From Octopus vulgaris (lineage: Eukaryota), in assembly GCA_951406725.2 (NCBI GenBank), contig OX597834.1, forward strand, positions 40,858,001 to 40,922,000: a DNA stretch of 64,000 bases, read 5' to 3'. Shown here piece by piece: positions 20,701-23,700 of the stretch. A program made the translations under genes and the position numbers. The notes beneath the pieces are model-generated. The model saw nothing but the letters and a program-made list of their open reading frames with translations. It did not search any database and was not told where the DNA came from. Numbering within the stretch: position 1 is the stretch's first letter; each line of letters starts with the position of its first letter.

Positions 20701-23700
20701 AACAACAGTTGGCCAGAGTGAGAGGGAGAGATAACTGTGAGAAAAGAATTGCTCAGGTTGAGATGCCATAAAGTGTTTGTTAAATCCATGAGAAAACCCC
20801 GAGATGGGACCAACAAAAAGTATATATATATAAATATACAGGGGTTGGACAAAATAATGGAAACATCTAGCATCACAGCATTTTAAGATGCTTTGATTAT
20901 TTTGTCCAACCCCTGTATATATGTATGTATCATTATGATGAGTATACAAATATAAGAGAAGAGTATTTCTGAGGCATCAGCTATATCAAAACAGGAATGA
21001 AGGCCTCAATATAGCACTGGATTTGTCTAATGTGGTAAATCAAAACCTCTCCTTTTCTATTTTACTGTATAAAAAATCTAGTCCTACAGAGATGTATAGT
21101 GAATGGGATCAATATATCTCATTTTATTGAGAAAAATATACTTAAAAATTGTAAATATGATAACAGTGTACAAGCGTTTACAATTCCTCAAAATAACTCC
21201 ACTGTGATTGATGGAAGTGTCAATATATCGCAGGAGAAATTTATGTTAAAACTACAAGCCATTTTCTTACAGTTAGATAACAGAAAACATGATGTCATTT
21301 GTGAAATATAGATGGATGAATATGGATCACCACACAAAGATATTTCGTAAATGAGTTTAGAAAAAAATCAAACTTTTGCTCTAAACATAAAACTAGGGTA
21401 CTGGGTTAGTGTCTTCTACCAAAAGTCCATTATACGTGTGTGTGCGTGTGTGTGTGTGTGTGCAGGGGCATGGGATGTGGAAGAACAGATCTGCCAAACA
21501 AAAATAACCTGTGTTATTTAATTCCATCTTCATCACATCCCTTCGAGTCCACACTGATTTTGTCTTCCACCCCCTACGAAATCAAGAAAATAAGTACCAA
21601 GTAAAGAAGAAAGAGAAGAATTGTGACAAAGTGCTGTGCTGGGTGAGTTTAAGAGACTTTGAATATTATTGAAGGAATTAGTTAATAGAAAGAGCTAGAT
21701 ATCTGTGGAAATTCTTGGAAAGACAGTCAAGATGTCAGAGGTTACAGTCTCACCAGTAAATTAATTGTACTTTTGTAATTATGATCAAATTGAATTGAAT
21801 TGGACGATTTTAAAATAAACTTTAAAGAGTTTCTAAAGACGAGGGCAGTGTGGAATACTGTTTATGAGAATACTGGAATATTCTAATCGGGAATATAGGA
21901 CTGCTGTAATACTGAGATATTCTAGATGGTATGTTGGAATATTTTATTGGAAAATGTTGAAATGTAATCTTCTAGTGGGCAATATTTGGAAATCCTTATG
22001 GAAAATGCTGAAATATCCTAATAACAACTGATGGAATACTGCACTGGGCAATGTTCGACTATTCTAGTGGGGAATGTTGGAATATTCTAGTTTTAGCCTC
22101 TGCATGTTGGAAATATTCTCATGGGAATACTGAAATATTCTAGTGAGCCTGCAGTGATTGTGTGAGGAGTGAGAGTACATACCAAGGGTATTTTGTTAAC
22201 ATAGAGGTGTCAAACTTAGGTAGATTGTTGCCATGCTCTGTAGTATTAGTAATAGCATGATGGTGGCCATTCAGCTTATGTTCAGTGTATGAAGTCTTTC
22301 GATGATGATCCTGAAAAAGGGAATTGATAAACAGGGTTTATACAAGAGGTTTAGAGGCAAACACACACACACACGCACACGTATGCGTGTGTGTTATACA
22401 TACCAAGGATAGGATGCTAAGTTCTTCACTTGTGACGAGGGATTAATTCCATTGAGGAATTTTGCAGGATGAGTTTTCTCTGTGACTTTCTGTGGAAATG
22501 CTTTCTCATAACATGCGGTTCTAGACTGGAAACAGAAACATTACCAGAACACTTTCCCTCGTGAAAAAACATCAGCATACGACAGTAGTTGCAGTGAGTC
22601 GTTTAGTTGCAGAAGTTGAGCATAAACATTAACACATCATCATTATTATCAAACATTCAAGTACAAACAACATGTATTGGAAAATATAAGATAAATTTAA
22701 TGTAGTCAGACTACATGGCTTAATTAGCAATTGCTATTCCACTTAAATAATGATTTACTACATGTATTTCCCTGTGAGCAAAAGAATGAGGCTACATGTT
22801 TAGATTCCACAGAAAACTGTAGTCTGAAGATATTAAATGTATCTTAGATTACCATATTCTCAATCAAAGGAGAGGGGCTTTCTCCGTCCGGGTTGCGGAT
22901 CCGTGGAATAAGCTGCCGGATGAGATAGTGAAGATGCCGACGACTGCTCAGTTCAAGGTCTCTCTTGACCAGAAATGGCCTGAACTCTTTGCATGAACAC
23001 CACCCTGTACATAACTCCATGTCCCCCTACATGGCCTTGCTTTTAGCTTTTTGAGCCAAAAAATTAACTTAACTTAACTATCATCCTCACTACTACTACT
23101 ACTGCCACTACTATGACTACTACAACAGAGGTAGTGAACTGGCAGGACCATTTGAGCATTAGACAAAATGCTTAGTGGCATTTTCCCCCTAGCTTATTCT
23201 ACTGAGGTCAACTTTTCCTTCCCTTGTTTCACAATCAATAAAGTAATTACCAGGCAAGCACTGGGGTCAATGTCTCCCTTCCTTAAAATGGCTGGATTTT
23301 TGCCCACATTTGAAACAATTATTAATATTATTATTGGGTGAGAGAGCAGTGCATGCCATCAAAGTGACATTGGGGTAAAATATACGAAGCCCAGTATACC
23401 CCTCATGACTACCTGTCTGATAACGGTACACCAGGCACATGCATCACAACCTTACGTGCACGACATGATGATCTCATATCAAGATAAACAGCACATGACC
23501 TTGCAGGTGGGGCCCAGTTAGAATTTTCTTCTGGTCGAGTAACCCATCCTGCTCAAAAGGTCCCTGAATAAGAGTTGTTTAAGGATGTTTAATGAAACAC
23601 CCATGTTTCCAGAGGTGAATTATTTAAACCCCTAAGAATCCCTCTCAACACATGGCTATGATGCTCCCCTACTACTTCTGCTTGTGATCAGAGTTGCACA

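What the first reader, a model, noticed from the sequence alone, without database searches (positions are those of the whole stretch)
22183..22525. Duplicated, obligatorily mutually exclusive exon pair encoding the Vav SH3-SH2 linker
Seen: two exons 93 nt apart, each starting in phase 0 and ending TA(C/T) CCT TG|gtatgt, so each supplies the YP-W that begins the SH2 domain. Including both gives [17 protein letters not shown]; skipping both shifts the frame. Exactly one must be used. The linkers differ strongly: A is Lys/Pro-rich; B is His/Thr-rich with an RKTS basophilic kinase motif. Inference: exon duplication created two Vav isoforms with different SH3-SH2 spacing and phospho-sites. I do not know of such a pair in vertebrate Vav.
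Basis: partly seen in the sequence, partly recalled or inferred. Interest (0 to 1): 0.72.

Follow-up and report, generated by a model that had tools for sequence, protein, structure and literature searches.

The report
Either-or linker exons in octopus Vav
The octopus gene for the signalling protein Vav carries two neighbouring exons that are spliced in one at a time, giving two versions of a predicted floppy linker that likely differ in their phosphorylation motifs; the choice is shared with cuttlefish and likely dates back to the ancestor of molluscs, brachiopods and segmented worms.

Summary
Confirmed. Exons A (22404-22525) and B (22183-22310) of octopus Vav are each 3n+2 long and end in the split Trp codon that starts the SH2 domain; both or neither gives an early stop. 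Public contigs show U-A, U-B and B-D joints by letters, A-D by exact length, and no A-B joint. Both isoforms are already in automated NCBI models for three octopuses and a cuttlefish; 0 of 27 coleoid proteins have both or neither. Two or more linker forms occur in 15 of 35 lophotrochozoan genera examined; 11 of the 15 pair a Tyr-Glu form with a Ser-Tyr-hydrophobic/Thr form. The 'different spacing' idea is weak: 41 versus 43 residues, both predicted disordered. A motif swap is likelier. A and B share no significant similarity beyond six residues, so duplication is inferred. The gene has two more tandem pairs in its acidic region. An ordinary mutually exclusive exon mechanism, in a gene where seven searches found no description.

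The parts
24514..24576 (-). Common upstream exon U (end of the N-terminal SH3), 63 nt, phase 0 to 0
   Evidence: its last 29 letters are the loose ends behind 22311 and 22526 in runs X14 and X1
22404..22525 (-). Alternative exon A, 122 nt, phase 0 to 2: Tyr-Glu (CYEK) linker, short helix and YPW; residues 647-687 of P0002
   Evidence: 177-nt contigs = 30 U + 122 A + 25 D in X13 and X14; 26 of 41 residues identical in cuttlefish
22311..22403 (-). 93-nt A-B intron. Its first 47 nt are predicted to form a 16-bp CA/UG hairpin; candidate branch A at intron position 53 or 76
22183..22310 (-). Alternative exon B, 128 nt, phase 0 to 2: RKTSYTE linker, short helix and YPW; residues 650-692 of P0001
   Evidence: 183-nt contig = 30 + 128 + 25 in X14, B-D joint in X9; U and D letters as loose ends; 28 of 43 residues identical in cuttlefish
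21432..21462 (-). CA-rich tract about 720 nt after exon B, complementary to the UG arm of the A-B intron hairpin (possible competing pairing; untested, microsatellite-like)
14548..14670 (-). Common downstream exon D (first SH2 exon), 123 nt; supplies the G that completes the Trp codon
   Evidence: Pfam SH2 begins at this Trp

Best explanation
Exons A and B are a mutually exclusive pair in the single octopus Vav gene: each is spliced between the same two flanking exons and supplies a predicted disordered SH3-SH2 linker plus the first SH2 residue, and they likely arose by an old tandem duplication that now swaps short phosphorylation motifs rather than domain spacing. Shown: anatomy, frames, use of both exons, conservation in cuttlefish. 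Inferred: transcripts with both or neither exon carry a stop 88 or 99 nt before the next junction and would be removed by nonsense-mediated decay, which secures one exon per protein whatever the spliceosome does. Inferred: the ancestral single exon carried a basic-x-Ser-Tyr-Glu motif, as chelicerates still do. After duplication in an early lophotrochozoan, one copy kept Tyr-Glu (A) and the other changed to Tyr-hydrophobic (B; Thr in coleoids). Coleoid A then lost the Ser. Untested: the two tyrosine motifs would recruit different SH2 partners or kinases, and coleoid B alone would keep a basophilic Ser site.
For: Frames and stops. Only two candidate exons in the interval. Joints: U letters behind both exons and D letters before B in 2 of 2 runs with cover; no A-B joint; A and B contigs listed for 3 of 4 runs; lengths 177 and 183 match. 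Annotated proteins: 23 B-only, 4 A-only, 0 both, 0 neither of 27 coleoid proteins with a linker; both forms in 4 of 5 coleoid species. Both exons are conserved octopus to cuttlefish (63% and 65%, against 57% for U and 88% for D). Two or three forms in 15 of 35 lophotrochozoan genera, all converging at the SH2 Trp; Tyr-Glu in 13, Ser-Tyr-[ILVT] in 13, both in 11. A label-free two-class fit over 9 genera scores 337 against a maximum of 212 in 200 shuffles, and 7 of 9 genera orient as the motif predicts. Chelicerates and hemichordates show one form. The linker is low-confidence in both models.
Against: No A-versus-B similarity outside the last 6 residues. Octopus B shows no signal against 11 outgroup linkers (z -0.9), and octopus A only z 2.4. 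Octopus links in the two-class fit are weak (-20 to +14, negative to Lingula), and Biomphalaria and Tubulanus orient the other way. Four genera with 4-15 proteins show only the B-like form (Mytilus, Haliotis, Ylistrum, Argopecten). The second forms of scallops and oysters are short (11-17 aa), and the scallop ones are unlike A. One Mya model lacks the linker. Gene structures outside octopus were not seen; those forms are protein models. Contigs drop rare variants, so the missing A-B joint does not show that it never forms. The A-D joint rests on contig length, not on listed letters. No phosphorylation, tissue or binding data.
Confidence: 0.62

Rival explanations
1. Exclusion is set at the RNA level by competing pairings. 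The UG tract in the A-B intron pairs either with the CA arm just behind A's donor (folding donor and branch point too close for A-B joining) or with a CA tract about 720 nt behind B (looping B out and favouring A).
For: The intron folds at -28.8 kcal/mol, z -6.4, 0 of 200 shuffles. Only 8 of 10,518 50-nt windows in 264 kb are as stable as its first 50 nt, and 1 of 122 windows with a (TG)6 tract. The downstream tract ranks joint 4th of 1,238 CA-containing sites for pairing with the UG arm and is the only long CA tract between 14,000 and 26,000. A 102-nt intron elsewhere in the gene is spliced, so 93 nt alone need not block joining.
Against: Both arms are microsatellite-like, with 71 long CA tracts in 264 kb, and the pattern was found post hoc. 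No conservation could be tested: X19 and X20 laid nothing. Such repeats are unlikely to be as old as the exon pair (inference). This rival can coexist with the best explanation.
Confidence: 0.2
2. The pair is real, but the alternative linkers of different phyla arose several times independently (this exon duplicates or is gained easily), and the octopus pair is only coleoid-old.
For: Amphioxus has two forms, both Tyr-Glu type, while hemichordates have one. Dreissena and Lineus have three. Scallop second forms are unrelated. Octopus exons link weakly to the others.
Against: The same Tyr-Glu versus Ser-Tyr-hydrophobic split recurs in chiton, gastropods, bivalves, brachiopod, nemertean and annelid (11 of 15 genera). 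The two-class fit keeps the same orientation when the +1 residue is masked (263).
Confidence: 0.22
3. The two linkers are functionally interchangeable. The pair persists because either exon gives a working protein, with little regulatory difference.
For: Near-equal length, disordered, no Pfam match. Some genera show one form only. Vertebrate-like Vav proteins have a very short linker.
Against: Both exons stay open and 63-65% identical between octopus and cuttlefish, with distinct conserved motifs.
Confidence: 0.15

Closest known systems
Frame-enforced mutually exclusive exon pairs, e.g. human PKM (phase 0-2, 167 nt; Hatje et al. 2017, PMC5740500: passages, section 7 and supplement rows seen)
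   Same: Two adjacent exons in the same phase, lengths not divisible by three, similar size; joint inclusion gives a premature stop (60% of human clusters have such lengths).
   Different: 87% of the human cases that map to a structure have an end within secondary structure, and most are visibly homologous. A and B are mostly predicted disorder with no detectable similarity beyond the SH2-proximal end, like the roughly 5% 'no similarity' subset. No VAV gene is in the validated human list.
Docking-site/selector competing RNA structures (Dscam type; Ivanov and Pervouchine 2018, PMC6071210: abstract and outline seen)
   Same: One element (the UG tract) is complementary to two CA elements, one behind each exon.
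   Different: The elements here are microsatellite-like, and neither conservation nor covariation was shown.
Vav-family GEFs and known Vav splicing (PMC6562523 section 7 and passages; PMC4601183 passages; zebrafish vav2 neural microexon, PMC12626424 passages)
   Same: Full CH-Ac-DH-PH-C1-SH3-SH2-SH3 architecture. One Vav gene in invertebrates. A 15-nt vav2 microexon near the RhoGEF domain changes activity about threefold, so splicing can tune Vav.
   Different: The passages read mention no alternative SH3-SH2 linker exons. The 2014 review says that nothing is known of the signalling specificity of Vav splice isoforms.

Membership tests
Mutually exclusive exons (Hatje 2017 criteria) | Junctions from each exon to flanking regions that bridge the other exon | tested here: met
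   U-B by letters in X14 and X1 (bridges A).
Mutually exclusive exons (Hatje 2017 criteria) | No exon-joining reads, unless joining causes a frameshift and stop | tested here: met
   No joint in 2 of 2 runs with cover; joining would give a stop.
Mutually exclusive exons (Hatje 2017 criteria) | Same reading frame and similar length | tested here: met
   122 and 128 nt, both phase 0 to 2.
Tandemly duplicated (homologous) exons | Sequence similarity between the copies | tested here: inconclusive
   Significant only through the last 6 residues. Members of both classes resemble single outgroup linkers in some taxa (z up to 3.9 and 5.4), but octopus B does not.
Steric-interference exon pairs | Donor-to-branch-point distance under 50 nt | tested here: inconclusive
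   Candidate branch A at intron position 53 or 76: just above the limit unless the hairpin shortens it; branch point not mapped.
Docking/selector RNA-structure exon clusters | Conserved, covarying complementary elements | not testable with these tools
   Complementarity is present, but no orthologous intron sequence was obtained.
NMD-enforced exon pairs | Mis-spliced forms carry premature stops and rise when decay is blocked | tested here: inconclusive
   Stops lie 88 and 99 nt before the next junction; decay itself was not testable.
Vav family | CH, RhoGEF, PH, C1, SH3, SH2, SH3 domain order | tested here: met
   Pfam; best PDB matches are Vav1; window exons map to P0001/P0002.

The most novel reading that the evidence does not exclude
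The single Vav gene of lophotrochozoans gained regulatory variety by exon duplication instead of gene duplication. Three tandem pairs (two in the autoinhibitory acidic region, one in the SH3-SH2 linker) each swap a tyrosine-bearing segment, giving up to 12 regulatory combinations in octopus. The linker pair has kept a Tyr-Glu versus Tyr-hydrophobic docking switch since before molluscs, brachiopods, nemerteans and annelids split, which points to an undescribed phospho-site that vertebrate Vav lost.
Probability: 0.3. Interest if true: 0.6.

Novelty: new member of a known kind. Interest (0 to 1): 0.4.

Why it matters
The splicing mechanism is ordinary and the isoforms are already in automated annotations. 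What it adds is a likely very old, apparently undescribed alternative exon pair in a disordered region of a central tyrosine-kinase effector. Conservation of two motif classes flags a candidate phosphotyrosine docking site in invertebrate Vav. It gives a direct test of how a single-copy Vav gene serves nerve and blood cells where vertebrates use three genes.

Tried and rejected
Run search: no RNA holder listed on record; run kinds are guesses, and spliced use was taken only from joints. Laying the full 10-kb span: repeats swamped the joint and loose-end tables (206 joints, 1,988 loose ends and 26,198 pieces not shown), and no exon rows were listed for X10. X19 and X20 laid 0 contigs, so intron conservation is untested. 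Contig depths (A 14.6, B 14.3, D 29.3 in X13; 14.4, 36.7, 48.8 in X14) fit A+B=D but were not used to rank exons; tissue labels are not given. Metagenome scan: none of 80 loci was recognised as a lophotrochozoan genomic stretch covering the linker. A third copy between U and D: none. DNA similarity of A and B: best local match 9 nt. Spacing hypothesis: rejected (2-residue difference). Intron too short to splice: rejected as sole cause (102-nt intron in the same gene). Alternative U donor at 24510: gives no open Vav frame. Rows dropped: proteins without an SH2 match, including all 7 Asterias rows; insects were not tabulated. Babylonia's two proteins differ in their flanks and were not counted as isoforms. 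Only up to 15 members per cluster were listed. Paper searches found no description of this pair; most subscription papers are not searched. Two supplements of PMC5740500 (s001, s003) were too large to read, and the unvalidated candidate list may lie there. Earlier scan notes: nothing on this locus; one GRB2 note was not used.

Full report
Observation. The two exons are present as described on the minus strand: A 22525-22404 (122 nt) and B 22310-22183 (128 nt), 93 nt apart. Both start in phase 0 and end in the TG of a Trp codon followed by gtatgt. With U (24576-24514) and D (14670-14548), either exon alone gives an open frame. Both give [17 protein letters not shown], and neither gives VCRTNGT-stop. 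These stops lie 88 and 99 nt before the next junction. In the 9.8 kb between U and D no other stretch meets the same exon test, and the region is single-copy.

Gene. Exon D is identical to Vav proteins named for Octopus vulgaris and O. sinensis, and the other window exons map onto them. Pfam places the first SH2 residue at the Trp that A or B begins. NCBI models already contain both forms in O. vulgaris, O. sinensis, O. bimaculoides and Sepia pharaonis; Argonauta had one protein, with B. Of 28 coleoid proteins fetched, 27 have the linker: 23 B only, 4 A only, none both or neither.

Use. Of four runs laid on the 10-kb span, three had listed contigs on A and B. Lengths of 177 and 183 nt equal 30 nt of U + exon + 25 nt of D, and one X9 contig runs from B into D. 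On the short span, X14 and X1 show U letters behind both exons and D letters before B, and no A-B joint; X19 and X20 laid nothing. The A-D joint rests on lengths, because its loose end was not listed. The informative runs come from four studies and three organism labels. Contigs cannot exclude rare forms or give tissue ratios.

Age. Octopus-to-cuttlefish identity is 26/41 for A and 28/43 for B, against 12/21 for U and 35/40 for D. Two or three linker forms that rejoin at the same Trp occur in 15 of 35 lophotrochozoan genera examined, many of the other 20 having only one or two proteins. The 15 include a chiton, gastropods, bivalves, Lingula, two nemerteans and Owenia. Thirteen have a Tyr-Glu form, 13 a Ser-Tyr-[ILVT] form, and 11 have both. 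A label-free fit over nine genera exceeds all 200 shuffles (337 against a maximum of 212) and orients seven as the motif does; Biomphalaria and Tubulanus do not, and octopus links are weak. Ticks, spiders, horseshoe crabs, Nymphon, Priapulus and two hemichordates show one form per gene; in ticks, spiders and horseshoe crabs it has Ser-Tyr-Glu and a later Tyr-x-Asn. Amphioxus shows two forms, both Tyr-Glu. Against a neat picture: Mytilus, Haliotis, Ylistrum and Argopecten show only the B-like form in 4-15 proteins, and scallop and oyster second forms are short. All of this is from protein models; no gene structure outside octopus was obtained.

Duplication. A and B are alike only in their last six residues. 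Duplication is inferred from identical phases, the shared SH2 start, tandem position, and the resemblance of members of both classes to single outgroup linkers. That resemblance is not seen for octopus B itself.

What differs. The lengths are 41 and 43 residues. Residues 645-677 (A model) and 647-681 (B model) have pLDDT under 50, and only a short helix and YPW are confident. Argonauta B is 44 residues longer. Spacing is therefore unlikely to be the point. The basophilic Ser motif is ancestral to both classes (for example RRPSYE in Lineus and Owenia); coleoid A has Cys in its place. The cross-phylum difference is the residue after Tyr. That Tyr+1 to +3 residues set SH2 specificity and that R/K-R/K-x-S is a basophilic kinase motif is recalled knowledge; phosphorylation here is untested.

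How exclusion works. Frame plus nonsense-mediated decay is sufficient at the protein level (inferred). Length alone does not block A-B joining, since a 102-nt intron in this gene is spliced, and candidate branch points lie 53 or 76 nt from A's donor. The intron's 5' half is predicted to form an unusually stable 16-bp hairpin. Its UG arm could alternatively pair with a CA tract behind B. This fits a competing-structure model (PMC6071210, abstract), but the elements are microsatellite-like and unverified.

Context. Upstream of the window the same gene has two more tandem pairs in the acidic region. One pair is 75 and 78 nt (phase 2 to 2; either or both in the models). The other is 103 and 109 nt (phase 2 to 0), each exon ending in an IYE-x-L motif like the autoinhibitory Tyr174 of Vav1; that equivalence is recalled. 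Similar alternatives appear in Lingula, Liolophura, Patella, Mytilus, Pecten and chelicerates.

Known or new. It meets the published criteria for mutually exclusive exons (PMC5740500, passages and section 7). No VAV gene appears in that paper's tables of 1,399 validated human exons, while PKM and FGFR2 do; two large supplements were not readable. Two Vav reviews (PMC6562523 passages and section 7; PMC4601183 passages) do not mention such exons in what I read. Seven searches found no description. Verdict: a real, already annotated but apparently undescribed new member of a known kind, likely ancient; interest 0.4.

Noticed in passing
L006:5346-5238, L007:1628-1526, L008:3069-2992, L009:3837-3763 (approximate; G000:C21 about 40,937,200-40,965,840, upstream of the window): Two further tandem alternative exon pairs in the Vav acidic region: 75/78 nt in frame (either or both in models) and 103/109 nt frame-locked, each of the latter with an IYE-x-L motif; similar alternatives in other lophotrochozoans and in chelicerates.
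   Followed up: partly
window 14664-14670, 22397-22403, 22176-22182 (minus strand): The first 7 nt of exon D (GTATGTA) equal the first 7 nt of the introns after both A and B, so aligners will place these junctions ambiguously, and exon D's start looks like a donor site.
   Followed up: partly
P0005 (Argonauta), P0021 (Sepia): Exon B carries a poly-Thr expansion (44 extra residues in Argonauta, 7 in Sepia), while exon A has the same length in octopus and cuttlefish.
   Followed up: no
P0134 and P0222 (Branchiostoma): Amphioxus Vav also has two alternative SH3-SH2 linkers, both Tyr-Glu type, while two hemichordates show one; either an independent duplication or an older one.
   Followed up: partly
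L005:5911-5890: Alternative acceptor adding six residues (LLSAYL with the following Q) before the DH-proximal exon in several O. sinensis models.
   Followed up: no
window 5619-5789 (minus strand): Some O. sinensis models (P0012, P0016) skip the exon at about 8453-8626 and read the last exon in another frame, replacing the C-terminal SH3.
   Followed up: no
window 22330: One letter difference (A to G on the plus strand) in run X1, in the pyrimidine-rich part of the A-B intron; allele or editing not distinguished.
   Followed up: no
window 17200-19250 and 22640-24000: Highly repeated interspersed elements in the introns flanking the pair, matched by very many contigs.
   Followed up: no
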